DNA of 64,000 bases from Verrucomicrobiaceae bacterium (GCA_027483175.1 JAIXVE010000316.1:1179-65178), one strand, 5' to 3'; counted from the stretch's first letter, positions 18,463-34,541 are shown. Numbers and translations are program-made. The notes: a model not told the origin generated them from the letters alone.

Positions 18463-18983
18463 TCCTCTCACAACCAGAACTCGTAGATTTCGTATCAAAG
18501 GGGGGCATTCGTCGACCGGATGGCATCTCGCCATCTGTGGATTTGGTTTCTTTGGGGTTACACCTCGGCGGACAGTTTCTTCGCTACAAGGGCGATTTGG
18601 CACCACACATACTCCCCAGCAGCCTTGAAACAAAGGCTGTAAAACTCGAAGCAGATGGATGCGTCAGCTTTCCGCCCGGCTGCTGCCTCCTCGCATCAAC
18701 GTTAGAAGTTGTAGACATGCCTCTTGATTTGATGGGATTTATTCAGACGAAAGGGACGATTGCACGAGGTTTTGTGACCGTTCATTTGTGTGATGGACAG
18801 ATTGACCCAGGTTACAATGGAAGCATCACGCTCGAGCTTGTTAATTTAAGCCAACACTCGTATCGGCTCCGCCCTGGAATAGCAATCGCTCAACTGTTCT
18901 TGCATAAGCTGACCACACCGCTTCTAGTTGGCTATCAAGGACGTTACCAGCAGGCAACGGGACCTACATCAATGCGAGCGTGA
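18459..18983 (+). CDS. dCTP deaminase-family protein (Dcd/dUTPase fold), catalytic residues retained
   Basis: 174 aa: MILSQPEL..., TKGTIARGF, GQIDPGYNGSITLELVN, RPGIAIAQLF and YQGRYQQATGPT match the Dcd signature. ATGA overlap with the upstream paralog. Confidence 0.8.
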   Translation: MILSQPELVDFVSKGGIRRPDGISPSVDLVSLGLHLGGQFLRYKGDLAPHILPSSLETKAVKLEADGCVSFPPGCCLLASTLEVVDMPLDLMGFIQTKGTIARGFVTVHLCDGQIDPGYNGSITLELVNLSQHSYRLRPGIAIAQLFLHKLTTPLLVGYQGRYQQATGPTSMRA

Positions 18984-20578: not shown

Positions 20579-21631
20579 TCAATTCAGGGCTGCAATCAAC
20601 TCACTCATCAACTCGGACGCCTTTCGGTGTCGGATGAGCGGTGCAGCTTGTCCGGCATAGAGTGGCAGTAGAGACGAGTCGCCAAGCCGCACTCCTTCTG
20701 TTTTCACAGACTGGTTGAAGGAGGCTTGCAGCGGGAAAGGCAAGGCGGGTGAATGACTATTCTCCAGTTCATCCAGCAAAGGAGTGCTCATGAAGCGAGC
20801 GAGCCTCCCGGTAAAGCGACGGCTCAACTGCGTGCGAGCCGCTGCAGGAGTAAACAAGGCCTCGCGGTGCGGTGGAGGGCAGTTCGATTCCTCGCAGGCG
20901 AGAAAAGCAGTCCCGACCTGCACCGCATCCGCGCCGAGTTGGAAGGCCGCCCGAATGCCGCGGACTTCCGCGATGCCCCCCGCGGCAATCACCGGCTTGC
21001 GGGTGACATTTCGCACCTGCGGCACGAGCGCCAGCGTGCCCGTGAGCGATTGCTCGGCAGACCTCAGAAAGCTCGGGCGATGTCCACCAGCCTCCGAACC
21101 CGTCGCAACAATCATGTCCACGCCAGCCTCATCCAGCGCGGCAGCTTCTTCCTGCGTCGTGGCGGTTCCAACAGTCACAATGCCGCTTCGAGTGCACTCA
21201 CGCAGGATCTCGACATCCGGAATGCCGAACACAAAACTGAACACGGCCGGCCGTGTTTCGAGAATCACCTCAACCTGCTCCTCAAAGCTGAAATCATCCG
21301 GCGGCTCCATGGGCGGGGCTTCGATACCAAGACGTTCATAAATCGCACCAAACTGCCGCAAACCGGCCTCATGATGCGCGGCTGTCATTTCCTCCGCACC
21401 CGGATCATATCGCGAGACCCACAGGTTAATGTTGAAGGGCTTGGAGGTCGCCGATTGCAGATCGCGAATCACCTCCCGCATCTGGGTCGGAGACAGATGA
21501 TGCGCTCCGAAGGAGCCGAGGCCGCCCGCATTCGACACCGCCGCCGCAAGCTTCACAGACGACAACCCGCCGCCGAACGGTCCCTGAATGATGGGATGCT
21601 CGATGCCTAGGCGGGAGGTGAACGCATTCAT
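20579..21631 (-). CDS. nitronate monooxygenase (NMO / 2-nitropropane dioxygenase family)
   Basis: MNAFTSRLGIEHPIIQGPFGGGLS..., AAGGIA and a TIM-barrel FMN pattern. The track start at 21697 overlaps the upstream gene; the ATG at 21631 follows the upstream stop by 2 nt. Confidence 0.9.
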   Translation of the reverse strand: MNAFTSRLGIEHPIIQGPFGGGLSSVKLAAAVSNAGGLGSFGAHHLSPTQMREVIRDLQSATSKPFNINLWVSRYDPGAEEMTAAHHEAGLRQFGAIYERLGIEAPPMEPPDDFSFEEQVEVILETRPAVFSFVFGIPDVEILRECTRSGIVTVGTATTQEEAAALDEAGVDMIVATGSEAGGHRPSFLRSAEQSLTGTLALVPQVRNVTRKPVIAAGGIAEVRGIRAAFQLGADAVQVGTAFLACEESNCPPPHREALFTPAAARTQLSRRFTGRLARFMSTPLLDELENSHSPALPFPLQASFNQSVKTEGVRLGDSSLLPLYAGQAAPLIRHRKASELMSELIAALN

Positions 21632-21633
21632 AC

Positions 21634-22242
21634 TCAGACGGGGAACTGGTTCTCGATCACCGTTTCGCTCACGTCGAGGCGATCCCCTCGCGGCCATGGC
21701 TCCTGCAAGCTTTTGCCAATCGCGATCATGAAGCTGATCGCGTGGTCGTCGGGCAGACGGATGATTTCCGAGACCGCCTCAGGGTCGAATCCCACCATCG
21801 GGCAGGTCTCGTAACCAAGCCCCCTCGCCGCTAGCATCAGCGTCATGCCGCCCAGCGCAGTGGAACGCATCGCCTCATCGCGGATGAGCTGATCCTTTCC
21901 TGCATAGAAGCCTTTCAAGGCAGGCACCAGAATGTCCTGAACCGGCTGCGGCGCATGACTCCAGTAACGCTCCGGCTGATGCTCATGCGCCCTCAAATCC
22001 GCGCACATCACAACCAGCAGCGACGCGTCCGTCACCTGTGCCTGATCCCAGGCCACAGCGCGGATCTGTTTGCGCAGCTCCGGATCGCGCACGAGCACAA
22101 AGCGGTAGTTCTGCATGTTAAAGGACGATGGCGCGAGCCGGGCAAGCTCCAGAAGCTTGTCCACCTCAGCCTGTGGCATGACATGGGCAGAATCAAAGTG
22201 CTTGATGGAACGACGGGTTTCGATGGCTTCGAGGATATTCAT
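21634..22242 (-). CDS. nitroreductase family protein
   Basis: 202 aa: MNILEAIETRRSIKHF..., PSSFNMQNYRFVLV. Typical NfsB/FRase-like fold signature. Confidence 0.9.
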   Translation of the reverse strand: MNILEAIETRRSIKHFDSAHVMPQAEVDKLLELARLAPSSFNMQNYRFVLVRDPELRKQIRAVAWDQAQVTDASLLVVMCADLRAHEHQPERYWSHAPQPVQDILVPALKGFYAGKDQLIRDEAMRSTALGGMTLMLAARGLGYETCPMVGFDPEAVSEIIRLPDDHAISFMIAIGKSLQEPWPRGDRLDVSETVIENQFPV

Positions 22243-22737: not shown

Positions 22738-22896
22738 TCACCTTCCTCGCTCCCGTGGGTGAATCAGCGAAGCGAAGGAACCTGAACCGAGCCCCGAATG
22801 CACCCTCCAGCCCCTTCCCGGGCGTCCCGGCGGTCCCTCGGTCGCGGTGAGTGTTCATCCTTCCTGCACTTGAACCCCGACCATCGCTGTGCCCCA

Positions 22897-23325
22897 CAAT
22901 TCGCCTTCCCCGAAGCCTTCCCCGACCGTGAGATTGTGCAGACACTGTCTGCACAACTGAGCTGGAGCCATTTTACCGCCATCGTTCCCCTGGATGATGC
23001 GCTGAAACGCGACTTCTACGCCGAGATGTGCCGCCTGGAGAACTGGAGCTACCGCACCCTGCGCGACAAGATCGGCTCCATGCTCTACGAGCGCACCGCG
23101 ATCTCCAAAAAGCCGGACAAGCTCATCAAACAGGAACTCGCCGCCCTGCGCAGCGAGGACAAACTGACGCCAGACCTCGTCTTTCGCGATCCCTACATCC
23201 TCGACTTCCTCGGGCTGAAGGACACCTATGCCGAGAAGGACGTGGAGGCGGCGATCCTGCGCGAGGTGGAGAGCTTCATCCTCGAACTCGGCGTCGGCTT
23301 TGCCTTCCTGGAGCGCCAGAAGCGG
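22897..23325 (+). pseudogene. truncated DUF1016/YhcG paralog (middle segment only)
   Basis: FAFPEAFPDREIVQTLSAQLSWSHF...FLGLKDTYAEKDVEAAILREVESFILELGVGFAFLERQKR aligns with the middle of the intact copy at 19312-20490. It lacks both the N-terminal helical region and the PDDEXK core, and homology stops 47 nt before the phd-like start. Confidence 0.65.
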
Positions 23326-23372
23326 AAGGCACAGGTGTTTGCATCACGGCCTGCATGCGTTACACTCCGAGC

Positions 23373-23579
23373 ATGAGCAAGACCGCCAAAGCACCCGAGA
23401 TCATCACCCGGCGCGGCAAACCCATTTCGGTGATCCTCCCCATCAAGGACTATCAGGCATTGCTTGATCGACTCGAAGACGCTGAGGATGCGGCCTGTCT
23501 CAAAAAAGCCCGCGCAAAGCCCCAATCCTTCCGCCCGCTGAACGAATACCTCGCCGCCCATGGAAAAGCCCGGATATGA
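23373..23579 (+). CDS. type II antitoxin, Phd/YefM-like
   Basis: 68 aa: MSKTAKAPEIITRRGKPISVILPIKDYQALLDRLEDAEDAACL.... It overlaps the relE-like gene by 20 nt. Confidence 0.8.
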   Translation: MSKTAKAPEIITRRGKPISVILPIKDYQALLDRLEDAEDAACLKKARAKPQSFRPLNEYLAAHGKARI

Positions 23580-23826: not shown

Positions 23827-24278
23827 AACCGCCTCAGTGAGCTGGGAAGAGTAGCCCCTCGGCTCCGCTTCCCCCGCGAATATCAGTCACGGCCTCAGGC
23901 ATGATCCAGGAAAAGTCCTTTCTTCGATGCGGCACCTGGTCCAGTGCCCGCTGATGGGCGGCCACGCCTGCGTTTTGCACGGCGCAGCGGAACGCAATGC
24001 CGCGCCAGCGGAAATCTGATCGCGAAGCCGAACCACGTAGCCGAAGGCAATTTACCAGAGATACCGATTTCGCAATACTACCCAGCGAGGCCAACGCCGA
24101 AAGATTCACCATGGCCATGCAGGACCTCGCAGGCAAGCGCCTTCGCCATCGCAGAGCCCTCCCCTGCTCACACCGCGCCCATCCACGCCTGCGGATTCCC
24201 CCGCTCGCGTCTGGACAGACCGGCCACCCCATCCTTAAATCGCCCCGGATCAGCCGCCACCCTGCTCTCCCTGCGCCC

Positions 24279-27101
24279 ATGCCGCCCTCCAAACTCGACC
24301 ATCTCCTCAGCAAAAAGCCCTCCCCGGCGCCTAACAGCAAGAAGGCCAAAAAAGCCCGCGCTGCCGACGAAATCCAACTCCCCGCCGACGGCGACTGGCG
24401 CACCACCGACGAAGACGAAATCAATCGCCGCCGCCTCCGTGCCCGCGAGGAACCCATGCAGGTCACCAACCTCGCACCAGAGTTCCCCATCTTCTCCGAC
24501 TTCCGCGTCTCCTCGGCCAGCGCCCAATCCTACACCGTCCAGATCCATGATGTCACCAGGCGTCAATTCGCCTGCTCCTGCATGGACTTCCGCATCAACG
24601 GTCTCGGCACCTGCAAACACGTCGAAGCCGTCCTCTGGCAACTCCAGAAACGCCATGGCAAAATTTGGCAGGATGCCGTGGAACAGGGATCGCCCCGCGC
24701 GGAAATCATGCGCCACCCCTCCCTCCCGACGCTCATCGCGGGCGGAAACCGCAAACGCTTGCCCGCCAAAGCCAAGCCCCTGTTCGCCAAAGACGGCACG
24801 CTGTCCTCCGACGTCGCCCCCGAAGACGCCTTCCGCATTCTCGCCCCGCTCCATGGCCACGCCATGCGCGTCTCCCTCGTCATTCCTCCATGGCTGGAAC
24901 GCCGCCGCCTCGCCGACGAACGCATCACCCTCCGGCGCGACTACGAGCAGTCCATCGTTAGCGGCACCGAACCACCCCAGGTCACCCTCATGCCGCTCTA
25001 TCCCTATCAGCGCGACGGCATGCTCCACCTCGCCTTCACCGGACGCGCCATGCTCGCCGACGAAATGGGCCTCGGCAAAACCGTCCAGGCCATCGCCGCC
25101 TGCGCACTCCTCCACCGTCTCGGCAAGGCCTCCCGTGTCCTCGTCATCTCCCCCGCATCCCTGAAATCAGAATGGGAAGACCAGATCCGCAAGTTCACCA
25201 CGCTCGACTATCAGATCGTCTACGGCAGCCGCCGCCAGCGCACTCCGCACTACTCCCGGAACGCTCCCATGTTCACCCTCATGAACTACGAGCAGGTCCG
25301 CACCGATGTCCTCGACATCAACGACCGTCTCGCCCCCGATATCGTCGTCCTCGATGAAGCCCAGCGCATCAAGAACTGGGCCTCTAACACCGCACGCTCC
25401 ATCAAGCTCCTCCGCAGTCCCTACGCCTTCATCCTCTCCGGCACCCCGCTCGAAAACCGCATCGACGAACTCTACTCCCTCGTCGACTTCCTCGACCCCG
25501 AGGTCTTCGGCCCTCTCTTCCGCTTCAATCGCGACTTCTACAAGCTCGACGACAAAGGCCGCCCCGAAGCCTGCACCAATCTCCGCGAGCTCCACGAACG
25601 CGTCCGCCCGCTCATGCTCCGCCGCCGGAAATCCGATGTCGAAAACGAACTCCCCGGCCGCACCGACGAAACCCGCTTCGTCCCCATGAGCGCTCAACAG
25701 GCCGCCGCCTACGAAGAACCAAAACTCCAGGCCGCCCAGATCGCTAACATGGCCAAAAAGCGACCTCTCCGTAAAGAGGAATTCGACCGGCTCATGCTCA
25801 ATCTCGCCAAAATGCGCATGATCTGCGACACGGTCTTCATCCTCGACCACGAATCCCGCGAATGCCCGAAACTCCTCGAACTGCGCAGCATCCTCGAAGA
25901 CTGTCTCTCCGAACCAGAGGTCAAGGTCATCATCTTCTCCGAATGGCTCCGCATGCTCCTGCTCGTCCAGGGGCTCCTCAAGGAAATGAACATCGGCTAC
26001 GCGCTCCACACCGGCCAGCTCCCCCAGAAACGCCGCCGCGCAGAACTCATCGCCTTTAAAGAGGACCCCGCCACCCGCGTCCTCCTCTGCACCGAAAGCG
26101 GCGGCACCGGCCTCAATCTCCAGAACGCTAGCGTCGTCATCAACTGCGACTTGCCATGGAACCCCGCCAGACTCGAACAACGCATCGCCCGCGCATGGCG
26201 CAAACACCAGAAACGCGCCGTCACCGTCATCAATCTCGTCACCGAAAAATCCATCGAACACGGCATGCTCGAAACCCTCGCCATGAAACAGGGCCTCTCC
26301 GACGGTGTCCTCGATCTCCGTGGCAATCTCGACCACATCAATCTCAAATCCGGCGGCCAGTCATTCCTCAACCGCCTCCAGCTCATCCTCACCCCAGCCT
26401 CCCCCATCCCGCGCGACACCAAACCACCCGCCCCGCCCGACCGCCCCCAGGCCATCGCCCACGAATGCCAGCAACTCCTCGGCAATCACTTCGTCTCCTG
26501 CCACGAACGCTTCGCCACCGACGCCCCCGGCAGCACGGTCACCGTCGTCGTCGACCGCGACGCCGATGCATGGCGCCCACGCATCGAAGCCCTCCATCAA
26601 CGGCTCTTCGCCGACAATCCCTCTCACGATCCCACCCGTCTCCTCGTCCTCGATCGCGCCACCCTAACCGCTCTCGACGCCCTCCAGGCCGCCGGCCTCA
26701 TCCAGCGCACCGAACGCGCCAGCCGCCCGCTCGACGGCCTCACCCCCGCCTCACCACCGCCCATCACCCTCACCGAAGCAGAAATCCAGCACCTCGCCGA
26801 CCTCACCCCGAAACTCCAGCACCGCCTCAAGGTCGCCAAAGCCCTCATCGCCGCCGACCTCCAGTCCGACGCCGCCACACCCCTAACCGACGCCCTCTCC
26901 CTCGCCTGCGAAATCCTCTGCACCAGACAACGCACCGCCCCACCCTCATCCCCCAGCGACCTCTCCCTCCGCCCATGGCTCGATCTCTGGTCCCCTCCAG
27001 CCCGCAACGCCCTCCTCTCCCCCACCCCCAACCCAGACCCAGACCCCGCCACCCAATCCCTCCTCCTCTCCGAATGCCAGCGCATCCTCGATGCCCCCTA
27101 A
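24279..27101 (+). CDS. SNF2-family helicase with N-terminal SWIM zinc finger
   Basis: SWIM motif FACSCMDFRINGLGTCKHVEAV; SNF2_N motifs LADEMGLGKTVQAIA, VLDEAQRIKN and LSGTPLENRIDELYSL; helicase-C motifs LLCTESGGTGLNLQNASVVINCDLPWNPARLEQRIARAWR. There is a poorly conserved C-terminal tail of about 260 aa. The track start at 23997 was rejected in favour of MPPSKLDHLL at 24279. Confidence 0.9.
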   Translation: MPPSKLDHLLSKKPSPAPNSKKAKKARAADEIQLPADGDWRTTDEDEINRRRLRAREEPMQVTNLAPEFPIFSDFRVSSASAQSYTVQIHDVTRRQFACSCMDFRINGLGTCKHVEAVLWQLQKRHGKIWQDAVEQGSPRAEIMRHPSLPTLIAGGNRKRLPAKAKPLFAKDGTLSSDVAPEDAFRILAPLHGHAMRVSLVIPPWLERRRLADERITLRRDYEQSIVSGTEPPQVTLMPLYPYQRDGMLHLAFTGRAMLADEMGLGKTVQAIAACALLHRLGKASRVLVISPASLKSEWEDQIRKFTTLDYQIVYGSRRQRTPHYSRNAPMFTLMNYEQVRTDVLDINDRLAPDIVVLDEAQRIKNWASNTARSIKLLRSPYAFILSGTPLENRIDELYSLVDFLDPEVFGPLFRFNRDFYKLDDKGRPEACTNLRELHERVRPLMLRRRKSDVENELPGRTDETRFVPMSAQQAAAYEEPKLQAAQIANMAKKRPLRKEEFDRLMLNLAKMRMICDTVFILDHESRECPKLLELRSILEDCLSEPEVKVIIFSEWLRMLLLVQGLLKEMNIGYALHTGQLPQKRRRAELIAFKEDPATRVLLCTESGGTGLNLQNASVVINCDLPWNPARLEQRIARAWRKHQKRAVTVINLVTEKSIEHGMLETLAMKQGLSDGVLDLRGNLDHINLKSGGQSFLNRLQLILTPASPIPRDTKPPAPPDRPQAIAHECQQLLGNHFVSCHERFATDAPGSTVTVVVDRDADAWRPRIEALHQRLFADNPSHDPTRLLVLDRATLTALDALQAAGLIQRTERASRPLDGLTPASPPPITLTEAEIQHLADLTPKLQHRLKVAKALIAADLQSDAATPLTDALSLACEILCTRQRTAPPSSPSDLSLRPWLDLWSPPARNALLSPTPNPDPDPATQSLLLSECQRILDAP

Positions 27102-27628
27102 CTCCACCCCTCCGCCAACCGTAGGCCCCATCACTCCCACCCGCCATCTCGGTCACCATGGCAGCCGTGCCCATATCGGTCCCATAGGCCCTATCTGTCC
27201 TATCTCTCCCCTGTCCCACCCCATCGCCTTCACCAAGCCTCCCAACCCCTCCCCAGCACCCTGCCCCATCCGTCCCCCGCTCCCCCCATCAACCCGCACT
27301 GGACGGAACCCCGCACTTAGCTATCATCCCCCAGCCGCTGCCCTCATGACCGACCGAATCGCCCCCTTTAGCTGGCCACCACTCCGTCGTTGCAGAGTTC
27401 AGCTAGCTTGAGCACCATCTCGCACCTCCGGCACCGGAGGGCCGCAAACCCACAACCATTCCGTCGGCAAGACCCGCCCACCCAGTCCAAAGTCGAATCC
27501 AGTTGCTTCACGAGGACGGCCTCTTCGAACACCTCACCTCACAGGACCACGAATCCGCGTAGATCGAATCAGCCTCATTCCGCTCGGCTGGCGCTTGCCG
27601 AATCCCCCATTTCGTGCACGTTTCGTGC

Positions 27629-27868
27629 ATGGCCACAAAGACCATCACCTTGGAACTCGATGCCTACGAGAAACTCCGTCACGCCAAGCGCGCAGGCGAG
27701 TCCTTCACGGAAGTGGTGCGTCGTGCCGTCTGGCTGGATGCTCCGGCGACCGGCGAATCCCTGCGGACCTATTTCCGGAACGGCGGCAGTGGCACCAGTG
27801 ACAAGTACCTGGATGCAGTCGAAGACGCCGCAAGGCAGGACCCCATTCCCGATGATCCATGGGCCTGA
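27629..27868 (+). CDS. putative VapB-type antitoxin
   Basis: 79 aa: MATKTITLELDAYEKLRHAKRAGESFTEVVRRAV.... It overlaps the PIN toxin start by 10 nt. A GTG at 27614 is an alternative start. Confidence 0.7.
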   Translation: MATKTITLELDAYEKLRHAKRAGESFTEVVRRAVWLDAPATGESLRTYFRNGGSGTSDKYLDAVEDAARQDPIPDDPWA

Positions 27869-28251
27869 TCCTCGACACCAATTTCATCATCGTGGCCGAA
27901 CGTGAGGCCAAGCGCGGCATCACCACCACAATCGACCGCTTCTTTGCCTCAAGGACCAGAGAGACCTTCTACATCACGTTCACTGTGGCCGGAGAATTGG
28001 CGTGCGGGCAATCCGCGAGCCCGAAGCGCGACTGGGAGCGCCTTTGCCGCCCTTACCCGATCCTCCCCTGGTCCAGCGAAGTCTCCTGGCAGTACGGCGA
28101 GATCTACCGGACGCTCGCAGCCAAAGGACAACTGATCGGATCCAATGACATGTGGATCGCCGCCACCGCGTTGGTGCACGGCATGGGCATCGTCACCAAC
28201 AATGTGGCCGAATTCAGTCGCGTGCCGGGCCTGCCAGTCGTGTCCTATTGA
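27859..28251 (+). CDS. vapC: PIN-domain toxin VapC
   Basis: 130 aa: MGLILDTNFIIVAERE...SNDMWIAATALVHGMGIVTNNVAEF, with conserved acidic PIN residues. Confidence 0.85.
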   Translation: MGLILDTNFIIVAEREAKRGITTTIDRFFASRTRETFYITFTVAGELACGQSASPKRDWERLCRPYPILPWSSEVSWQYGEIYRTLAAKGQLIGSNDMWIAATALVHGMGIVTNNVAEFSRVPGLPVVSY

Positions 28252-28259
28252 TTCGCTCC

Positions 28260-28985
28260 ATGAACCCTACCCTCTGCATTCTCGGCGGCTGCAACGGAGC
28301 AGGGAAAACCACCCTCGCACGCGAACTCCTGCCTCGCCTCGGCCTGATGCGTTTCCTGAATGCGGACGAGATTGCGAGGGGCCTCTCGCCGCTCGACCCC
28401 ACGCTCAGTGCATTCCGGGCGGGGCGGCTGGTCCTCGAGGAGGCGAGGGCACTCATTGCTGCGAAGGGAAGCTTTGCCATTGAGAGCACACTCAGCGGCA
28501 AGGCTCAGGCGGGGCTAATCCGGGAGGCGAAGGCAAGTGGGTACCGTGTGCTGCTCCACTACATCGTCATCGGTTCGGCGACGCAGGCGGTGGACCGCGT
28601 CGCCCTGCGCGTGAAACTCGGTGGCCATCACGTGCCTGAGGACGACATCCGCCGCCGTTATGAGCGCAGCCGCCAGCATTTCCTTGAGGATTACCTCCCC
28701 CTTGCCGATGAGTGGGGCCTGTGGGAAAATCACTCACCACCCGCGGTGCAGATCGCCGACAGCAAGACCCACACGATCGACCAGCTTCACGCCATGCTCA
28801 CCTCCAACAACCCTCAAGAGACACCTCCTCGCGAGATGTCCGAGATGTCGAAAATCGTGCTCGAAGCCAGCCGCGTGGCCACCGAGAAAATGCTCGACTA
28901 CTACAAGCGCATGGGCATCAAGGTCACCCCGCAGATGACCCTCGCCCCGGAGAAACCGAAACGCGTGCGCCGGAACACGAAGTGA
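28260..28985 (+). CDS. zeta-toxin-like / COG4185-type P-loop ATPase with C-terminal extension
   Basis: Walker A LGGCNGAGKTTLA, then FLNADEIARGL and HHVPEDDIRRRYERS. The product is 241 aa, about 50-60 aa longer than I expect for this family. The track start at 28152 overlaps vapC and was rejected. Confidence 0.75.
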   Translation: MNPTLCILGGCNGAGKTTLARELLPRLGLMRFLNADEIARGLSPLDPTLSAFRAGRLVLEEARALIAAKGSFAIESTLSGKAQAGLIREAKASGYRVLLHYIVIGSATQAVDRVALRVKLGGHHVPEDDIRRRYERSRQHFLEDYLPLADEWGLWENHSPPAVQIADSKTHTIDQLHAMLTSNNPQETPPREMSEMSKIVLEASRVATEKMLDYYKRMGIKVTPQMTLAPEKPKRVRRNTK

Positions 28986-29117
28986 AGTCACTGGCGGGAA
29001 GCCGGCCGGTGCCCACATCAGTGGCATAGCCAATAGGTTCGTCGATACCCCTTGCCGGTCACTACACCGCCGCAGAATCGATCGAGTTGCCTTCACGGAT
29101 CCAGCCCAAACCGCGCT

Positions 29118-29155
29118 CATACGTCCCATTTGACGCACGTCATGAGGGACGTATG
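29118..29155. promoter_or_regulatory. nested palindrome immediately upstream of the ATPase gene pair (candidate operator or 5'-UTR hairpin)
   Basis: catacgtccc (29118-29127) pairs perfectly with gggacgtatg (29146-29155). The inner pair is tgacg-ca-cgtca (29131-29142). It ends 8 nt before the ATG at 29163. Confidence 0.35.
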
Positions 29156-29162
29156 TTCATCC

Positions 29163-30332
29163 ATGAAAGCAAACCCCGGAGGCCAAATCGACCTCAACGC
29201 AGTCCTCGGACGCGACCGGCTCATCCAGAACATCTGGGAAATCGTCCAGCAGCAAAGCATGGTGATCACCGCCGAACGCCGTATCGGCAAAACCACGGTC
29301 ATGAAGAAAATGGCGGCCGAACCTCAACGGGGTTGGCTTCCAGTATATCAGGACCTGGAAAGCTGCCACTCGGCCGCCGAATTCTCGATGGCGGTCTACA
29401 AGCAGGTGCATCACTTCCTCAGCGGAAAGAGCAAATTGGCCAGACGATCCAAGGAGTTTCTAGGATCCCTTGGGGGAATCGAACTTGGCGGCACCATCAA
29501 ACTGCCGGAAAAGGCGGCCACTCCTTGGAAGGAGGTTCTGACCAAGGCGATCGAGGATCTGATGCACGAGAACGATGAGGGCACCAAACTGCTGTTCCTG
29601 TGGGATGAGTTGCCGTTCATGCTGATGAACATCCGCGACGGCGAAGGCGAACAGACCGCCATGCAGGTGCTTGATCATCTGCGGTGGCTGCGTCAGACGC
29701 ACAGCGGGCTTCGCATGGTCATCACGGGCTCCGTCGGCCTTCACCATGTCCTCACTTCCCTCAAGGAAAAAAGCTACGCCAACTCTCCAGTCAATGACAT
29801 GGCGACGGTGGATGTCCCTCCCTTGGCACCAAACGACGCCGTCAGCCTGGCTCTTTTGTTGATTGACGGGGAATCCCTGCCGTCATCTGACAAACCCGCG
29901 GCAGCAGCAGCCATTGCCCGGGAAGCAGATTGCTTCGCCTTCTACATCCACCACATTGTCAGGGGCCTGAAAATCATGGAATGGGACGCCAGTCCTGAAA
30001 ATGTCGCCAAGGTGGTCGCCTCGCATCTGATCGATGCCAACGACCCATGGGAGTTGCTCCACTATCGCGAGCGGATTGCCACCTATTACCAGAACCACCA
30101 GAAGGAAGTCTCCCTGATTCTGGATGAACTGGCAGCTCAGAACGAGCAAGCCTCGGTGGCCGAATTGTTGGCCATGCTCAAGGGCGCAAGCCAGTTTGAC
30201 GACCGAGACCGGCTCCTTCGCCTTCTCAACCTGATGGAGCGTGATCACTACCTGAAACGGGACGAGTCTGGAGCATATCGCTTCCGCTTCCCGCTGATCC
30301 GCCGCTGGTGGAAACTCAACCGCGGCCTGTAA
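29163..30332 (+). CDS. P-loop ATPase (archaeal-ATPase/STAND-like) with C-terminal winged-helix-like region
   Basis: 389 aa. Walker A ITAERRIGKTTV, Walker B LLFLWDELP, and a C-terminal LLRLLNLMERDHYLKRDESGAYRFRFPLIRRWW. Composition is lower in GC than the core genes. Confidence 0.75.
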   Translation: MKANPGGQIDLNAVLGRDRLIQNIWEIVQQQSMVITAERRIGKTTVMKKMAAEPQRGWLPVYQDLESCHSAAEFSMAVYKQVHHFLSGKSKLARRSKEFLGSLGGIELGGTIKLPEKAATPWKEVLTKAIEDLMHENDEGTKLLFLWDELPFMLMNIRDGEGEQTAMQVLDHLRWLRQTHSGLRMVITGSVGLHHVLTSLKEKSYANSPVNDMATVDVPPLAPNDAVSLALLLIDGESLPSSDKPAAAAAIAREADCFAFYIHHIVRGLKIMEWDASPENVAKVVASHLIDANDPWELLHYRERIATYYQNHQKEVSLILDELAAQNEQASVAELLAMLKGASQFDDRDRLLRLLNLMERDHYLKRDESGAYRFRFPLIRRWWKLNRGL

Positions 30333-30334
30333 CC

Positions 30335-32560
30335 ATGCAGCCGTCACACCCCGCAGAGAGTCCCCACAGTGGCAAAACCATCTGGGTCTTCACCCCCAGC
30401 CGCACCGACCCGAAGGACCTCGAGTTCATTCTCGTCCAAAGGCAAAGCCTCCTGCGGGACGCCGTCGAGCGGGTGCAGGAAAGCGCGCTGACAAACCACA
30501 AGCACCACCTCCTCTTCGTGGGTCCGCGCGGCTGTGGGAAAACCCACCTCGTCACGCTCATCGTCAGCCGACTCGCTGAAGACGAGTCTCTCACAAACCA
30601 TCTGCGCATCGCATGGCTGAATGAAGACGAAACCTGCACGACCCTCATCGAGCTTCTTTTGAAGATCCACGCGGCTCTGGAGAAGCGCTACCCAGCTGAA
30701 TTCCACGCAGACATGCTCAGTCCCGCGTTTGACCTCAAACAGGACGCCGCCTTGGAATTCGTCTCGAAGCATCTCCTCTCTGCTCTCGGTTCTCGCACTC
30801 TCCTGGTCGTGACCGAAAACCTCGACGCCATCTTCGAGGGGCTCGGCGATTCCGGACAAAAACAGCTGCGATCCTTCATCCAAGAAAACCCCCGCCTCTC
30901 CATCGTCGCCACCGCCCAACGGCTCGTCGAAGACCTCTCCAATCGGAACAGTCCCTTCTTCGGTTTCTTCCAGACAGAACATCTTAAGCCGCTCACGGTC
31001 ACGCAGGCCACCGAACTCCTCCAGAACATCGCCCGTCTTCAGAACAAGGACTCTGTCGTAGATTTCCTCACCACCAGCCAGGGACGCTCCAGAGTCCGGG
31101 CCATCCATCATCTCTCAGGGGGCAATCACCGGATCTACATCGTCCTCTCGCAGTTCATCACTCGCGACAGTGTGGATGCTCTCTTGGAGCCGTTCATGAA
31201 AATGGTCGACGAACTCACACCCTATTACCAGGAACGCATTCGCTGGTTGCCGCCGCTGCAGCGAAAGATTGTCGAGTATCTCTGCACCTGCGAAGGCACC
31301 GTGCCAGTGAAAGATATCGCCAAGCGACTCTTCGCTACTCCGCAGACCATCTCCAGCCAGCTTCAGGACCTCCGGGAAAAGGGCTACGTCGAGGCCAATC
31401 AACGCGGTCGCGAGTCCCTCTACGAGATCAGCGAACCTTTAATGCGCATCTGCGTCGAAGTGAAGGACAATCAGCGTCTGCAACCACTCCGCCTGCTCGT
31501 AGATTTCCTCCGAGTCTGGTATGACGATCAGGACCTCAAACTTCGTCTCAACACACTCGAACCTGCCTCCGCATCCTTCTCCTATCTGCAATCTGCCATC
31601 CAAAAGAACCGCACCGATGGCAACCTCAGAAAGCAGATCCTTCTGGACCATCTCGAATTGTCACTTCCGGAGGAGCATCCCTCAGTGGTTCGCGAGGGGA
31701 TGGTTAATGGTTTGAAGAATGCTCCAGAAGAATTGCTTATGGCCTTGCAAAGCATGAGCGAGAAAATGCCAGCCGAGGCGGTCCTTTCTCTCAATCAAGC
31801 CATCGCTGAAGAAGCCACGCCCGCGACCAAGGTTGGCCTCCTGCTCGTTCGCGCGATGATTCATTCAGAATTGGAAGACCGAGCCAAAGAAATCGCCGAC
31901 TACACGGCTGTGATCGACCTTCCCGGCGCACCGGCCAAGCACGTCGCAAAAGCGCTCCTCAATCGCGGCCTCGCCCATCTAAGTGATGGACGGAAAAAAG
32001 AATCAAGATCGGACTTTGAAACACTTATTCGCCTTCGACAGACTCCTGTAGAAACCATAGTCTATGCGCACCTCTTCATTGCCGAAAACCACTTCAGCGA
32101 GGGCCAATGGAGCGAAGGCTTCCAATCCCTTGAGGCTAGTTTCGATCGCGGCGCGAAAGCTCAGCCCGCATATCGCGGAAATCCTGCCGGTTTGATCGGC
32201 GTGATCTTCTCCGCTGGTCTGAACCCAGAGGGCCGTCGCAGCAAAGTGGCCGAGTTCCTCCGTCTCTATCAGAAGCATCAGGCGCTGCCCGCCTTGGGTG
32301 CGGCCGTCATTCAACACATCGGCAGCATCTACCGCTCCGGCGAGCCTTTTCCATCCTCGGACAATCTCGAAGGCTGGAGATCAGCATGGGAACAAGCCTC
32401 GGAAGGCGTTCCTGACCTTCGCCTTTCCATCCGCCTGCTCAACACGTCGATCGCATTCCTCAAAACGGGAGGAAAGGACCGCTCGATCCTGCTGAACCTC
32501 GCATCCACTGAGCGCTCCATCGTCGAGCAAGCCTTTGGCCTCGATAGAGAGCCTCGTTGA
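30335..32560 (+). CDS. STAND/ORC-like P-loop ATPase with winged-helix (MarR-like) domain and C-terminal TPR-like helical repeats
   Basis: 741 aa. Walker A FVGPRGCGKTHLV, Walker B LLVVTENLD, wHTH RKIVEYLCTCEGTVPVKDIAKRLFATPQTISSQLQDLREKGYVEA, and a C-terminal helical repeat region of about 300 aa. Its ATG lies 2 nt after the stop of the preceding ATPase gene. Confidence 0.75.
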   Translation: MQPSHPAESPHSGKTIWVFTPSRTDPKDLEFILVQRQSLLRDAVERVQESALTNHKHHLLFVGPRGCGKTHLVTLIVSRLAEDESLTNHLRIAWLNEDETCTTLIELLLKIHAALEKRYPAEFHADMLSPAFDLKQDAALEFVSKHLLSALGSRTLLVVTENLDAIFEGLGDSGQKQLRSFIQENPRLSIVATAQRLVEDLSNRNSPFFGFFQTEHLKPLTVTQATELLQNIARLQNKDSVVDFLTTSQGRSRVRAIHHLSGGNHRIYIVLSQFITRDSVDALLEPFMKMVDELTPYYQERIRWLPPLQRKIVEYLCTCEGTVPVKDIAKRLFATPQTISSQLQDLREKGYVEANQRGRESLYEISEPLMRICVEVKDNQRLQPLRLLVDFLRVWYDDQDLKLRLNTLEPASASFSYLQSAIQKNRTDGNLRKQILLDHLELSLPEEHPSVVREGMVNGLKNAPEELLMALQSMSEKMPAEAVLSLNQAIAEEATPATKVGLLLVRAMIHSELEDRAKEIADYTAVIDLPGAPAKHVAKALLNRGLAHLSDGRKKESRSDFETLIRLRQTPVETIVYAHLFIAENHFSEGQWSEGFQSLEASFDRGAKAQPAYRGNPAGLIGVIFSAGLNPEGRRSKVAEFLRLYQKHQALPALGAAVIQHIGSIYRSGEPFPSSDNLEGWRSAWEQASEGVPDLRLSIRLLNTSIAFLKTGGKDRSILLNLASTERSIVEQAFGLDREPR

Positions 32561-32630
32561 ATACCGGACTTTCCCATGAATCTATCCGCAGCACTCCACG
32601 TAATCCCGCCCGGCTGACGACACGCACCAC

Positions 32631-34541
32631 ATGACCACTCCCGGAACCACCCGCCGCAGCCTCGCGCTCACCGCCCTCCTCGCCTTCATCTGCGCGCCCT
32701 CTGCACCCGCCGACCCCAATCCCCCCACCGCCCACGCCGACGCCCGCAAAGCCTTCCTCAACGGCGTCACCCCCTTCGTGAACGCCTACTGCACCGAGTG
32801 CCACAGCGACCGGAAATCCAAAGGCGGCCTCAATTACCAGTCCGCCCTCAAGGACCCCGGCAGCTCCGCCTCCCGCAAACGCTGGAAACAGGCGCTCGCC
32901 AACGTCAAAGCCCACGACATGCCCCCGAAGGAAGCCGATCGCCAGCCCACCGACGACGAACGGCAGCAATTCCTCGACTGGATCGGCAAACTCAAATTCC
33001 TCAGCGCCAAAGACCCGGGCCTCTTCGTCATCCGCCGGCTCACCAAAACCGAGTACGGCAACACGCTCCACGACCTCTTCGGCGTCGACCCTTCCATCGC
33101 CCGCGATCTCCCTGACGAAGTCTCCGGCGCCGGTTACCTCAATACCCTCTCTCCTCTCCAATCCGAACAATACCTCGCCATCGCCACACAAGTCCTCGAC
33201 AAGGCCATTCCCCCCGGCGGCACACCATCCGCCGAGTGGCTGCAGCCATGGTTCACCACTCCGCCTGCCGATGGCACCGACCCCAAATCCGCGGCCACGC
33301 TGGCCGCTCGCTCGCTCGCCCGGAAAGCCTTTCGTCGTCCGCCTTCCGACGCCGAAATCCAGACCCTCCTCGCCGTCTTCGATCTCGGCCTCGCTAACAA
33401 CCTCAGCTACCAGGATGCGCTCCGCCTCATGCTCAAAGCCATCCTCGTTTCCCCCTCCTTCCTCTTCATCACCCCAGCCAGCGCCGCCCCTCAAGGCCAG
33501 TCCATCATCCCCCTCGACGACCATCAGCTCGCCTCCCGTCTTTCCTATCTGCTCTGGGCCACCATGCCCGACGCCGAACTCTCCGCCCTCGCCGACAGCG
33601 GCCAGCTCCACCAGCCCGAAACCCTAGCCACCCAAACCCGCCGTCTCCTCGCCGACCCGCGCTCCCGCGCCCTCTTCGACGGCTTCGGCACTCAATGGCT
33701 CGGCCTCGGCGACCTCAAATCTAAAACCTTCGACCCCGCCAAATTCCCACAGGTGTCCGCCGATCTGCGCGACGCCATGATCGACGAAGCCCGGCTCTTC
33801 TTCGACAGCATCGTCCGCGAAAACCTCAGCGTCATCCGCTTCATCAACAGCGACTTCACGTTCCTCAACGCACCCCTCGCCGCCCTCTACGGCATGGAAT
33901 CCTCCGTCACCGGCCCGGAAATGCGCCGCGTATCCCTCACCGACCCCAACCGCGGCGGCATCCTCGGCATGCCCGCCGTCCTCGCCGCCACTTCCTTCCC
34001 TAACCGCACCAGCCCCGTCCGCCGCGGGGTCTTCGTCCTCGAACAGGTCCTCGGCGAACACGTCCCGCCCGCCCCGCCTAACGTCCCCGCCCTCGATAAG
34101 CAGGACCCCTCCAAAGTCGCCTCCCTCACCCTCCGCCAGCGCACCGAACTCCACCGGACCAACGCCGTCTGCGCCAACTGCCACAACATCCTCGACCCCA
34201 TCGGCTTCGGCCTCGAAAACTTCGACGCCATCGGCCGCTGGCGCTCTCAGGACGACTCCGGCGGCCCCATCGACGCCACCGGCGACCTCCCCGGCAACCA
34301 CCACTTCTCCTCCCCGCGCGACCTCAAATCCATCATCGCCACCAGAACCAGGGACATCGCCCGCAACCTCACCGAAAAACTCCTCGCCTACGCCCTCTGC
34401 CGCCAACTCGACGGCTACGACGAAATCATCGTCGACCAACTCATGGACTCCATCGCCAAAGACGACTTCCGCATGCAGTCCCTCATCACCGCCATCGTCA
34501 CCAGCTACCCCTTCACCCATCGCCGCATCACCGACGACTGA
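32631..34541 (+). CDS. DUF1592/DUF1588/DUF1585-family protein with CxxCH motif (PSD-type), no DUF1552 partner
   Basis: 636 aa. Signal peptide, [46 protein letters not shown] and [18 protein letters not shown]. Confidence 0.85.

What the first reader, a model, noticed from the sequence alone, without database searches (positions are those of the whole stretch)
29118..32560. Tightly coupled pair of STAND-like P-loop ATPases (389 aa, and 741 aa with wHTH and TPR) with no recognisable effector domain
Two consecutive + strand genes are separated by only 2 nt (TAA 30330-30332, ATG 30335) and are preceded by a nested palindrome. Both have clear Walker A/B motifs (ITAERRIGKTTV / LLFLWDELP; FVGPRGCGKTHLV / LLVVTENLD). 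The second adds a MarR-like winged helix (RKIVEYLCTCEGTVPVKDIAKRLFATPQTISSQLQDLREKGYVEA) and about 300 aa of TPR-like helical repeats. That is the sensor layout of bacterial NLR/Avs-type STAND NTPases, but I cannot see a nuclease, TIR, SIR2, protease or pore-forming effector in either protein. The DNA is visibly less GC-rich than the core genes: hand counts give 34/60 at line 31441 and 24/60 at line 31981. The pair closes the accessory island, just after vapBC and a zeta-like toxin. A two-ATPase sensor module lacking an effector does not match any named system I recognise.
Basis: partly seen in the sequence, partly recalled or inferred. Interest (0 to 1): 0.72.

Follow-up and report, generated by a model that had tools for sequence, protein, structure and literature searches.

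The report
Self-regulated two-ATPase sensor cassette
Two overlapping genes for NLR-like/ORC-like ATPases form a widespread, horizontally moving, uncharacterised cassette that carries its own strongly conserved promoter-operator but no recognisable killing enzyme; it is a good but unproven candidate for a new bacterial conflict or defence module.

Summary
Gene A (29163-30332, 389 aa) and gene B (30335-32560, 741 aa) are real, 2 nt apart, and lower in GC and GC skew than their flanks.

- **Obligate pair.** In 80 species-level genomes from at least eight phyla, A lies directly upstream of B in 77, usually with an ATGA overlap. Their divergence is correlated (r=0.91). No third gene is conserved.
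- **Folds.** A resembles archaeal PF01637 ATPases and ORC/Cdc6: canonical Walker A/B plus a C-terminal winged helix. B resembles the STAND-TPR protein PH0952. It has an NTPase domain, a helical domain and a MarR/ArsR-like winged helix. After these come an arm, 1-14 near-identical 37-aa TPR units (one here) and a conserved helical C-terminal domain. B's Walker B is non-canonical (h-E-N-L-D).
- **No effector.** No nuclease, TIR, SIR2, protease or pore domain is present. Pfam, NCBIfam and PADLOC name no system.
- **New finding.** It has three ACGTACGT boxes at 16-bp spacing over the -35 and -10, and it places the ATG at the predicted transcription start.

The best reading is an autorepressed, mobile sensor module. 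A conflict or defence role is plausible but unproven, because few neighbours are defence genes. I class it as a new variant of a known kind.

The parts
29117..29157 (+). Promoter-operator of the A-B operon. Three 8-bp boxes lie at 16-bp spacing: TCATACGT 29117-29124, ACGCACGT 29133-29140 and ACGTATGT 29149-29156. The family consensus for a box is ACGTACGT. The boxes overlap -35 TTGACG (29130-29135) and -10 TATGTT (29152-29157). The -10 ends 5 nt before ATG 29163, so the predicted mRNA is leaderless.
   Evidence: An inverted repeat is present and the promoter scan finds TTGACG-16-TATGTT. TTGACRYRCGT is unique in the window, against 0.19 expected. It occurs once per locus, upstream of A, in 44 of 85 loci. 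The consensus and information content come from 38 sites. In a metagenome scan with 22 specified bases, 33 of 49 hits have an A and/or B relative detected on the contig.
29163..30332 (+). Gene A: a 389-aa AAA+ ATPase with a C-terminal winged helix. It has Walker A AERRIGKTT (nt 29271-29297), Walker B LLFLWDE (nt 29589-29609), a conserved beta-hairpin insert at about residues 104-115, a helical lid, and a wHTH at about residues 330-389 (nt 30150-30329).
   Evidence: ORF and start. Pfam gives only sub-threshold AAA_22, AAA_14 and ATPase_2 matches. The AF2 model has pLDDT 75. The top Foldseek matches are 2qen and 2fna, followed by ORC/Cdc6 and plant NLR NB-ARC. The family has 2376 representatives at 50% identity, nearly all 380-405 aa.
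30335..32560 (+). Gene B: a 741-aa STAND-like NTPase. It has Walker A GPRGCGKT (nt 30521-30544) and a non-canonical Walker B LLVVTENLD (nt 30800-30826). GGNHRIY is invariant. The MarR/ArsR-like winged helix covers residues 308-353 (nt 31256-31393) and the arm covers about residues 385-475. There is a single 37-aa TPR unit at residues 520-556 (nt 31892-32002) and a conserved helical C-terminal domain at about residues 575-741 (nt 32057-32557).
   Evidence: ORF. Pfam HTH_24 is above its cut-off. Alignment A1. The AF2 model has pLDDT 78. The top Foldseek match is 6mfv, followed by Orc1/Cdc6 and RFC. Repeat counts and motif counts.
30329..30337 (+). A-B junction: TAA 30330-30332, a 2-nt gap, then ATG 30335. 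In most relatives the genes overlap by 4 nt (ATGA). This implies translational coupling.

Best explanation
A and B form a self-contained, horizontally transferred, autoregulated two-gene module of AAA+/STAND-type NTPases.

Shown:
- The two genes are almost always together and are translationally coupled.
- They co-diverge.
- They carry their own conserved promoter overlapped by an array of palindromic ACGTACGT boxes.
- They have no enzymatic effector and no conserved third gene.

Inferred mechanism:
- B is the sensor and switch. Its MarR/ArsR-like winged helix binds the box array as dimers or oligomers and represses the operon.
- B's TPR array and conserved C-terminal domain receive a protein or ligand cue.
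- B's degenerate Walker B makes it a slow nucleotide switch rather than a motor.
- On activation B changes nucleotide state, leaves or remodels the operator, and assembles with A.
- A, the catalytically canonical ATPase with its own winged helix, provides the output: ATP-driven binding or remodelling of DNA or a protein target, and/or a burst of A-B expression.

Most likely biological role: a conflict or defence (abortive-infection-like or anti-mobile-element) module.
For: **Pairing.** A is found upstream of B on the same strand in 77 of 80 species genomes. ATGA overlaps are common, and A and B identities correlate at r=0.91. A pair at 23-25% identity on a Moraxella plasmid has the same layout.

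**No third gene.**

**Operator.** The same operator precedes cassettes whose proteins are only 26-35% identical. The Moraxella pair has a different palindrome in the same position. That fits a binder encoded in the cassette and co-evolving with its site.

**B as the binder.**
- Variants that lack A or carry only a remnant of it keep the operator (L019, L098, L110, L115).
- B's recognition helix [QN]T[IV]xxQL is conserved in 18 of 76 columns across operator-sharing cassettes, against 7 of 65 columns for A's winged helix.
- B's wHTH scores above the Pfam cut-off.

**Folds.**. PH0952 is itself a predicted transcription-factor STAND (PMC6468293).

**Accessory, mobile character.**
- Relatives of B occur in 142 of 185,579 species genomes, spread over many phyla.
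- Identity between phyla reaches 60-75%.
- Flanking genes differ in every species.
- Composition is atypical in the window.
- A is reduced to fragments in 5 of the 80 genome loci and in the metagenomic relative L001.

**Conflict link.**
- The window island holds vapBC and a zeta-like gene, a YhcG nuclease, dCTP-deaminase-like genes and an SNF2 helicase.
- A close relative has a TOTE primase-helicase beside the pair.
- The Moraxella pair sits next to QatD and a methylase.
- An A-like module is fused at the effector position of the vWA component of a VMAP-MoxR ternary conflict system (PMC7159879).
- TPR units vary from 1 to 14 near-identical copies.
Against: - No experiment exists, and no relative has a known function.
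- Among the two nearest genes on each side of the pair, 2 of 127 nearest neighbours and a handful of 108 second neighbours hit PADLOC models. Most neighbours are housekeeping genes, so classic defence-island enrichment is not evident.
- No effector domain is present, so the output step is speculative.
- No relatives were found on phages or in IMG/VR.
- Operator binding by B rather than A is inferred, not shown.
- The B model has low confidence across the winged helix (pLDDT below 50 for residues 277-380).
- The TPR repeats are near-identical rather than hypervariable. This resembles concerted expansion more than target-driven diversification.
Confidence: 0.45

Rival explanations
1. This is a STAND-type signal-transducing transcription factor, working like MalT or PH0952. 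B senses a small molecule or protein through its TPR and C-terminal domain, oligomerises with ATP, and activates or represses its own operon plus unlinked genes carrying ACGTACGT boxes. A is a co-regulator or ATP-dependent recycling partner. It has no role in conflict.
For: The best structural match is PH0952, a predicted transcription-factor STAND with an ArsR-type DNA-binding domain. B has a bona fide MarR/ArsR-like wHTH. A conserved operator overlaps the promoter. There is no effector. Neighbours are mostly housekeeping genes.
Against: No target operon is conserved next to the pair in any lineage. In 85 loci (about 1.4 Mb) the box motif is almost only at the pair's own promoter, and it occurs once in the 64-kb window. 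The distribution is patchy and driven by horizontal transfer, at 0.08% of species. A is reduced to fragments in several loci. Neither is typical of a physiological regulator.
Confidence: 0.25
2. This is a selfish addiction or maintenance module. It is an autorepressed two-gene cassette that persists because its loss or dilution releases a harmful activity, such as unregulated DNA binding or ATP consumption by A. It need not sense invaders.
For: It is a tightly autoregulated bicistronic cassette with its operator over the promoter, which is the standard design of toxin-antitoxin and restriction-modification controllers. It lies beside vapBC and zeta-like genes in the window. It is spread by horizontal transfer without any recombinase of its own.
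Against: Both proteins are large, multi-domain and highly conserved, and B has a sensor-like TPR and C-terminal region. This is much more elaborate than known addiction modules. Neither protein has a toxin-like domain.
Confidence: 0.12
3. This is a replication initiator or loader pair of a small integrated element. ORC/Cdc6-like A and B would bind the 16-bp-spaced repeats as iterons of an origin.
For: Orc1/Cdc6 and ORC subunits are among the top structural matches for both proteins, including the DNA-bound Orc1/Cdc6 heterodimer 2qby. Repeated boxes lie in an AT-rich stretch directly upstream of the gene, as at archaeal origins.
Against: The boxes coincide exactly with a sigma-70 -35/-10 pair at fixed register to the ATG. 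The cassette sits between housekeeping genes with no helicase, primase, integrase or partition genes conserved nearby. None were found on phages, and only very distant relatives on plasmids. The TPR sensor is unexplained.
Confidence: 0.07
4. This is a transposition helper or target-selector ATPase pair, like TnsC, MuB, IstB or TniB.
For: A's model has lower-ranked matches to TnsC and MuB filaments. There are weak sub-threshold IstB (B) and TniB (A-family relative P0292) matches at the P-loop.
Against: No transposase is conserved beside the pair. No terminal inverted repeats or target duplications flank it in the window. The sequence matches are P-loop only.
Confidence: 0.03

Closest known systems
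PH0952 of Pyrococcus horikoshii (PDB 6mfv), a MalT-related STAND ATPase with a TPR sensor (PMC6468293)
   Same: The order of domains is the same as in B: nucleotide-binding domain, helical domain, winged helix, arm, then TPR sensor. It is the best Foldseek match, aligned over 735 columns at E 8e-10. It is predicted to act on DNA through an ArsR-type fold.
   Different: PH0952 has a separate N-terminal ArsR effector domain, whereas B has none and its NOD winged helix itself looks ArsR/MarR-like. PH0952 is not paired with a second ATPase. Sequence identity is 13% and TM-scores are low (0.21/0.24) because the domains are arranged differently. B has E-N-L-D in place of a canonical Walker B, and it has a GGNHR motif.
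Archaeal PF01637 (ATPase_2) proteins PAB2304 (2qen) and SSO1545 (2fna)
   Same: These are the best structural matches to A: full length, TM 0.56-0.66, E about 2.5e-9. Both are an AAA+ core plus helical lid plus C-terminal winged helix of about 350-390 aa, and both are of unknown function.
   Different: The Pfam ATPase_2 match is far below threshold (13.4 against 33.2 bits). Identity is 14-15%. A lacks the DUF234 domain often attached to this family, which has been classed as PD-(D/E)XK (PMC3424549). A has a conserved beta-hairpin insert and is always coupled to B.
Orc1/Cdc6 initiators, for example the 2qby heterodimer on origin DNA
   Same: AAA+ plus winged helix in both A and B. B has a sensor-2-like GGNHR motif. 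Two paralogous subunits are encoded together, and repeated DNA boxes lie upstream of the gene.
   Different: The boxes form a promoter-operator, not an origin. There is no replicon context. B has a 350-aa TPR and helical extension. Sequence models do not match (ORC-CDC6-like at E 0.008, P-loop only).
Antiviral STAND (Avs) and bacterial NLR-like defence proteins
   Same: An NTPase followed by a helical-repeat sensor, sporadic horizontally transferred distribution, and occasional location beside other defence genes.
   Different: Avs proteins are single polypeptides with an N-terminal effector such as a nuclease, protease, SIR2 or TIR domain. Here there is no effector, a second ATPase is obligatory, and no Avs, NACHT or NB-ARC model matches. 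The sensor is short, with near-identical repeats.
MoxR-vWA-VMAP ternary conflict systems (Kaur et al. 2020, PMC7159879)
   Same: One relative of A (P0347) is fused to the C-terminus of the vWA component (SAV_2336 N-terminal domain). This is the slot those authors assign to effector or variable domains. It lies in an operon with VMAP-C and a MoxR-type ATPase.
   Different: The window has no MoxR, vWA or VMAP genes. The fusion is the only protein with a large extra N-terminal region among the 150 representatives listed, and B is absent there.

Membership tests
STAND NTPases (Leipe et al. 2004 definition) | NOD core: P-loop NBD, then helical domain, then winged-helix domain | tested here: met
   The B model has an NBD at about residues 20-215, a helical domain at about 222-300 and a wHTH at about 305-375. 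The top Foldseek match is the STAND PH0952. The A model has the same three modules, and plant NLR NB-ARC domains are among its matches.
STAND NTPases (Leipe et al. 2004 definition) | C-terminal repeat (TPR, WD40 or LRR) sensor | tested here: met
   B has an arm plus TPR-type repeats, numbering 1-14 across homologues. A has none.
STAND NTPases (Leipe et al. 2004 definition) | STAND-type sequence signatures or family HMMs (NACHT, NB-ARC, nSTAND; Walker B hhhhDD; GxP in the helical domain) | tested here: inconclusive
   NACHT E 0.019, NPHP3_N E 0.0019 and AAA_16 E 3e-5 are all below their cut-offs. B has hhhh[T/A/V]ENLD and GGNHRIY with an Arg, as in ORC/Cdc6 sensor 2. A has CFPFY where GxP would be expected.
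STAND NTPases (Leipe et al. 2004 definition) | An effector domain at one end of the protein | tested here: not met
   No domain other than P-loop, wHTH and TPR is found. B residues 1-12 are disordered, and A aligns end to end with effector-less ATPases.
Avs (antiviral STAND) defence proteins | Match to Avs family models | tested here: not met
   NCBIfam Avs2 gives E 0.098 over 39 residues at the P-loop. PADLOC has no Avs hit.
Avs (antiviral STAND) defence proteins | Activation by a phage protein, and protection from phage | not testable with these tools
   This needs phage challenge and co-expression screens.
Any named anti-phage system in PADLOC-DB 2.0 or among the NCBIfam anti-phage models | HMM hits to the system's proteins in the right gene arrangement | tested here: not met
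   Only wHTH-only hits (Csa3, CasR, CARF3 HTH regions) and P-loop-only hits (PifA, mad8, IetA, PtuA, PDC-S01) appear at weak E-values. The distant Moraxella pair is likewise unassigned.
Pfam ATPase_2 (PF01637) / DUF234 archaeal ATPases | Sequence match above the gathering score | tested here: not met
   A scores 13.4 bits and B 16.6 bits against a cut-off of 33.2. There is no DUF234 match.
Pfam ATPase_2 (PF01637) / DUF234 archaeal ATPases | Fold of solved members (2qen, 2fna) | tested here: met
   These are the top two Foldseek matches of A, at TM 0.56-0.66 over 381-383 columns.
Orc1/Cdc6 replication initiators | AAA+ initiator fold with a C-terminal DNA-binding winged helix | tested here: met
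   ORC/Cdc6 chains are among the next-best matches for both models, after 6mfv for B and after 2qen/2fna for A.
Orc1/Cdc6 replication initiators | Association with an origin or replicon | tested here: not met
   The cassette lies between unrelated chromosomal genes in each species, with no replication genes conserved nearby. The repeats coincide with -35 and -10.
MalT/LAL-type STAND transcription factors | A separate DNA-binding effector domain (LuxR-type or ArsR-type) | tested here: not met
   The only HTH in B is the one at the NOD winged-helix position, residues 308-353.
MalT/LAL-type STAND transcription factors | Specific operator sites at regulated promoters | tested here: inconclusive
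   A conserved box array exists at the pair's own promoter. Binding was not tested, and no other targets were seen in the DNA held.
MoxR-vWA-VMAP ternary conflict systems | Adjacent MoxR ATPase, vWA protein and VMAP genes | tested here: not met
   These are absent from the window and from the conserved neighbourhood. They are present only around the fused relative P0347.

The most novel reading that the evidence does not exclude
The A-B cassette is a previously unnamed, widespread class of effector-less NLR-like immune module. A degenerate-Walker-B STAND sensor uses its own NOD winged helix both to repress the operon on an array of ACGTACGT boxes and, once triggered through its expandable TPR array, to recruit a dedicated catalytic AAA+ partner. 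The output would be ATP-driven DNA or protein remodelling, or a transcriptional burst, rather than a nuclease, NADase or protease.
Probability: 0.25. Interest if true: 0.8.

Novelty: new variant of a known kind. Interest (0 to 1): 0.58.

Why it matters
Known bacterial STAND/NLR-like systems couple a sensor to an enzymatic killing domain. This pair has none. It is nevertheless abundant: more than 1000 protein clusters at 90% identity for each gene, and 2376 A-family representatives at 50% identity. It is strongly conserved and moves between phyla together with its own operator. If it is a conflict system, it would define a different output logic, namely two cooperating ATPases with DNA binding. 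It would also provide a compact, portable autoregulatory switch whose cis-element is already defined. If it is a regulator instead, it would be an unusual mobile STAND transcription factor. In either case the conserved operator makes the first experiments straightforward: footprinting, reporter fusions and trigger screens.

Tried and rejected
- **Third component or hidden effector.** All-against-all clustering of ORFs within 10 kb in 82 loci gave only A, B and shadow ORFs inside them. Pfam scans of nearest neighbours gave no family in more than 3 of 127 proteins.
- **Sequence search of PDB.** This gave only TPR matches for B and nothing for A.
- **Paralogy of A and the B core.** hhalign gives a colinear 307-column alignment but only E 0.007 and probability 5%. 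This is suggestive, not established.
- **Phage carriage.** There was no tblastn hit in 50,697 phage records and no relative in IMG/VR. BFVD gave only generic clamp-loader folds.
- **Plasmids.** Only distant relatives at 20-28% identity were found.
- **Mobile-element ends.** No convincing direct or inverted repeats flank the cassette in the window.
- **Literature.**
  - Searches for COG1672, DUF234 and PF01637 yielded only the PD-(D/E)XK assignment of DUF234.
  - The supplements held for the 2026 STAND survey contain none of the three accessions tried.
  - The MADS preprint did not clarify mad8.
- **P0347's long N-terminus.** I first suspected a gene-calling artefact. It is a genuine SAV_2336/vWA domain.
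- **Operator in other contexts.** Of 49 metagenome hits, 13 show no A or B relative. Several of these are at contig ends or carry divergent A starts. One lies upstream of an unrelated nSTAND5-TPR gene, and one beside zorC/zorD-like genes. I did not pursue these further.

Full report
**1. What is in the sequence**

The window carries two adjacent + strand genes.

- Gene A is in frame from TTG 29052. All 120 listed homologues begin at the equivalent of ATG 29163 with MKANPGGQID, so A spans 29163-30332 and encodes 389 aa.
- Gene B starts at ATG 30335, two bases after A's TAA, and ends at 32560 (741 aa).
- GC over 29-32 kb is 0.555-0.586, against about 0.60-0.65 on either side.
- The strongly negative GC skew of this genome (-0.3 to -0.45 on the coding strand) drops to between -0.06 and -0.17 here. 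The pair therefore looks compositionally foreign.
- Upstream lie vapB (VAPB_antitox), vapC (PIN) and a Zeta_toxin/AAA_33 gene.
- Further upstream are an SNF2 helicase, a YhcG/DUF1016 nuclease and a truncated second copy of it, and two dCTP-deaminase-like genes in the lowest-GC segment. All of these follow thiC.
- Downstream is a DUF1592-family gene and a tRNA-Met.
- The window is 93-97% identical to Verrucomicrobiales MAG contigs.

**2. The proteins**

Profile libraries give no family assignment above threshold except B's winged helix.

- B's winged helix matches Pfam HTH_24 at residues 308-353 (31.9 bits against a 21.9 cut-off) and NCBIfam ArsR/SmtB at E 8e-10.
- Every other hit is a sub-threshold P-loop or TPR match.
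- PADLOC and the NCBIfam anti-phage models return only wHTH-only or P-loop-only noise.

Protein A:
- It has a canonical Walker A (AERRIGKTT) and Walker B (LLFLWDE), conserved in 114-117 of 120 homologues. Most of the 150 distant representatives keep them too.
- Its AlphaFold model (pLDDT 75) aligns end to end with the archaeal PF01637 ATPases 2qen and 2fna (TM 0.56-0.66). The next matches are ORC/Cdc6, plant NLR NB-ARC modules, TnsC and MuB.
- Its C-terminal 120 aa are a helical lid plus a winged helix, not a hidden effector.

Protein B:
- It has Walker A GPRGCGKT.
- Its Walker B is h-h-h-h-[T/A/V/I/M]-E-N-L-D, so one of the two canonical acidic residues is missing.
- It has an invariant GGNHRIY, which resembles the ORC/Cdc6 sensor-2 motif.
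- Its model (pLDDT 78, low across the winged helix) is best matched by the STAND-TPR protein PH0952 (6mfv, E 8e-10, 735 aligned columns). Orc1/Cdc6, ORC4 and RFC follow.
- PH0952 has the order NBD, HD, WHD, arm, TPR and is a predicted transcription factor (PMC6468293).

Alignment of 25 diverse B homologues shows four regions:
- a very conserved N-terminal stretch of 435 aa;
- a linker;
- a variable number of 37-38-aa TPR units;
- a conserved helical C-terminal domain of about 170 aa.

Across 121 sequences the unit count runs from 1 to 14. Protein length follows 713 + 37n (r=0.98). The window's B has a single unit at residues 520-556. In one homologue 13 units are nearly identical to one another, which indicates recent tandem expansion.

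A profile-profile comparison aligns A with the N-terminal half of B colinearly, motif for motif. Its statistics are weak (E 0.007, probability 5%).

**3. The pair is a unit**

- Each protein has more than 1000 homologous clusters at 90% identity.
- The A family has 2376 representatives at 50% identity (522 at E ≤ 1e-30). Almost all are 380-405 aa.
- A profile scan of one genome per species found B relatives in 142 of 185,579 species. They span Verrucomicrobiota, Planctomycetota, Beta- and Gammaproteobacteria, Acidobacteriota, Binatia, Kuenenia, Entotheonella and Myxococcales.
- In 77 of the 80 loci retrieved, A lies immediately upstream of B on the same strand. Of the other three, two have no A and one is cut by a contig end.
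- In 5 of the 80 loci, and in the metagenomic relative L001, only fragments of A remain.
- A's stop and B's start usually overlap as ATGA. Identity of A and of B to the window proteins correlates at r=0.91 over 60 loci.
- A pair only 23-25% identical, with the same sizes and an 11-nt overlap, lies on Moraxella osloensis plasmid pNP7-2. Its neighbours are QatD, a dUTPase and an N6-methylase.
- Clustering all flanking ORFs finds no third conserved gene.
- The nearest neighbours are diverse, mostly housekeeping genes, with no Pfam family in more than 3 of 127 proteins.
- Only 2 of 127 nearest neighbours and a handful of 108 second neighbours match PADLOC models.

Within the window's own clade the pair sits at the same site, but the cassettes around it differ. 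One relative has a TOTE primase-helicase between the SNF2 gene and the pair. Another has vapBC and the zeta-like gene downstream of the pair instead of upstream.

**4. The palindrome is a conserved promoter-operator**

Aligning the 120 nt upstream of A from many loci reveals a motif conserved across phyla. Its consensus is A.aTACGTt.ataTTGACGTACGTtaaattTgACGTAT.

- It comprises three, and sometimes four, 8-bp ACGTACGT palindromes at exactly 16-bp spacing.
- The middle box overlaps a TTGACG -35. The last box overlaps the -10 (TATAAT or TATGTT).
- In the window the boxes are at 29117-29124, 29133-29140 and 29149-29156.
- The promoter scan independently reports TTGACG, a 16-nt spacer and TATGTT at 29130-29157.
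- TTGACRYRCGT occurs once in the 64-kb window, against 0.19 expected.
- It occurs once per locus in 44 of 85 loci, almost always 30-110 nt upstream of A.
- In 24 of 38 aligned sites the ATG lies 33-37 nt from the start of the -35. This puts it at the expected transcription start, so I infer a leaderless mRNA. In the remaining sites the motif is further upstream and a Shine-Dalgarno sequence is present.

A metagenome scan with 22 specified bases, where about 0.06 chance matches are expected, returned 49 sites.
- 33 have an A and/or B relative detected on the contig. In the contigs examined these follow the site. They include cassettes only 26-35% identical to the window proteins.
- Three more have a B relative but no detectable A.
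- Several sites with no detected relative are contig ends or very divergent A starts.

The distant Moraxella pair has a different perfect palindrome (AACTATAAAATTATAGTT, twice) flanking its own promoter. The design is therefore conserved while the site and its binder have co-diverged. This implies that a cassette-encoded protein binds the operator and represses the operon.

B is the better candidate for that protein:
- Variants that lack A or keep only a remnant of it retain the operator (L019, L098, L110, L115).
- B's winged helix is a recognisable MarR/ArsR type.
- B's recognition helix ([QN]T[IV]xxQL) is much better conserved among operator-sharing cassettes than A's. The counts are 18 of 76 columns against 7 of 65 at the 80% level.

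**5. How it most likely works**

Shown: an obligate, translationally coupled, co-diverging pair with its own conserved operator over the promoter. It has no enzymatic effector and no third gene, and its distribution is sporadic and driven by horizontal transfer.

Inferred:
- B acts as sensor and switch, and as autorepressor through its winged helix.
- Its TPR array and C-terminal domain receive the cue.
- Its degenerate Walker B suits slow switching rather than motor activity.
- A, with intact catalytic motifs and its own winged helix, supplies the ATP-driven output after assembling with B.

The biological role is uncertain.

Evidence for a conflict or defence role:
- The cassette is accessory and mobile.
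- It decays in some genomes.
- The window island contains toxin-antitoxin and nuclease genes.
- There are occasional defence neighbours: TOTE, Qat plus a methylase, and MADS-like genes.
- One relative, P0347, has an A-like module fused at the effector slot of the vWA component of a VMAP-MoxR ternary conflict system (PMC7159879).

Evidence against:
- Defence-gene enrichment among neighbours is weak.
- No effector is present.

Rivals:
- The main rival is a MalT/PH0952-like signal-transducing transcription factor. It is weakened by the lack of any conserved target operon or additional box arrays in the DNA available, and by the patchy distribution.
- Addiction-module, replication-initiator and transposition-helper readings are less likely. 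The reasons are given under the rival explanations.

**6. Comparison with known systems, and novelty**

- By fold, B works like a STAND with a TPR sensor, and A like an archaeal PF01637 or ORC-type ATPase.
- Membership of Avs, NACHT or NB-ARC, of any PADLOC or NCBIfam system, of PF01637 by sequence, or of true ORC/Cdc6 initiators is not met or is inconclusive (see the membership table).
- Public records call these proteins 'hypothetical', 'AAA family ATPase', 'tetratricopeptide repeat protein' or 'MarR family regulator'.
- A 2026 survey describes 589 prokaryotic STAND clades. This family may lie among them, but I could not map it.
- I therefore class the cassette as a new variant of a known kind. 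It is an effector-less, two-ATPase, self-operated STAND/AAA+ module.

**7. Verdict**

The finding is not ordinary housekeeping, and it is not a known named system. Its function remains unproven.

Interest is 0.58. The operator now gives concrete, cheap experiments to settle the question.

Noticed in passing
window 17881-18983: Two tandem, overlapping dCTP-deaminase-like (Pfam DCD/dUTPase) genes of 193 and 174 aa lie directly after thiC, in the lowest-GC kilobase of the window (GC 0.50). Nucleotide-depleting deaminases are a known anti-phage theme, but these are short stand-alone genes.
   Followed up: partly
window 19312-20490 and 22798-23376: A full YhcG/DUF1016 PDDEXK nuclease gene and a truncated second copy bracket two minus-strand genes, a nitronate monooxygenase and a nitroreductase (20579-22242). 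This looks like an insertion into, or duplication of, the nuclease gene. In relative L001 the DUF1016 gene abuts a truncated A directly.
   Followed up: partly
window 24136-34541 compared with L003, L004 and L005: Close relatives (92-97% nt identity) share the backbone SNF2 gene, A-B pair, DUF1592 gene, but differ in what lies between. L003 has about 4.4 kb carrying a TOTE AEP primase-helicase-DUF559 gene in place of vapBC and the zeta-like gene. L004 has an extra 3.2 kb. In L005 the vapBC and zeta-like genes lie downstream of the pair, and about 85 bp of the DUF1592 gene start (window 32599-32684) is present twice, flanking the inserted block. This is a local hotspot for cassette shuffling.
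   Followed up: partly
window 1-64000: The + strand has a very strong negative GC skew (-0.3 to -0.45) along almost the whole window, and nearly all long ORFs are on the + strand. Only 17-24 kb and 28-32 kb deviate. The bias produces many long spurious Pro/Arg/Ser-rich ORFs in other frames.
   Followed up: no
L125 4649-4683 and 4853-8128 (metagenome contig Ga0181520_10003803): An exact copy of the A-B operator lies 170 nt upstream of an unrelated 1092-aa nSTAND_NTPase5 plus TPR_10/TPR_12 protein, with no A or B nearby. It is either a remnant or a case of the same operator controlling a different STAND gene.
   Followed up: partly
L113 8145-8179 (also L127): An operator copy without A or B lies between zorC/zorD-like genes (EH_Signature domain protein plus SNF2 helicase) and a group II intron reverse transcriptase. 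This may be a scar of a lost cassette in a Zorya-type defence locus.
   Followed up: partly
L086 851-885 (IMG/VR contig IMGVR_UViG_3300008448_000127): This is the only viral-contig match to the 22-base operator pattern. It is followed by a short low-complexity ORF, not by A or B.
   Followed up: partly
L087 692-5857 (JGI metagenome contig Ga0654655_010498): An operon of a VMAP-C protein, a MoxR-type AAA_5 ATPase, and a 932-aa fusion of the SAV_2336/vWA N-terminal domain with an A-like ATPase-wHTH module. No B gene is detected.
   Followed up: yes
L085 4573-4642 (Moraxella osloensis plasmid pNP7-2): The distant A-B-like pair has its own operator design. Two copies of the perfect palindrome AACTATAAAATTATAGTT flank TTGACT...TAATAT. 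The locus also holds qatD, a QueC-like gene, a protein kinase, a dUTPase and an N6-methylase.
   Followed up: partly
alignment sets A3 and A4 (neighbours of the pair in L003-L082): In one or a few loci the pair is flanked by genes matching the MADS models mad2, mad3 and mad6. B itself has a weak P-loop-region match to mad8 (E 0.0012). I could not identify which locus, because the searches were exhausted.
   Followed up: no
window 27101-27613: A 500-bp C-rich, apparently non-coding stretch lies between the SNF2 gene and vapB. In L003 and L005 homology to the window breaks off inside it, at about 27280-27300. It may therefore mark a recombination boundary of the variable region.
   Followed up: no
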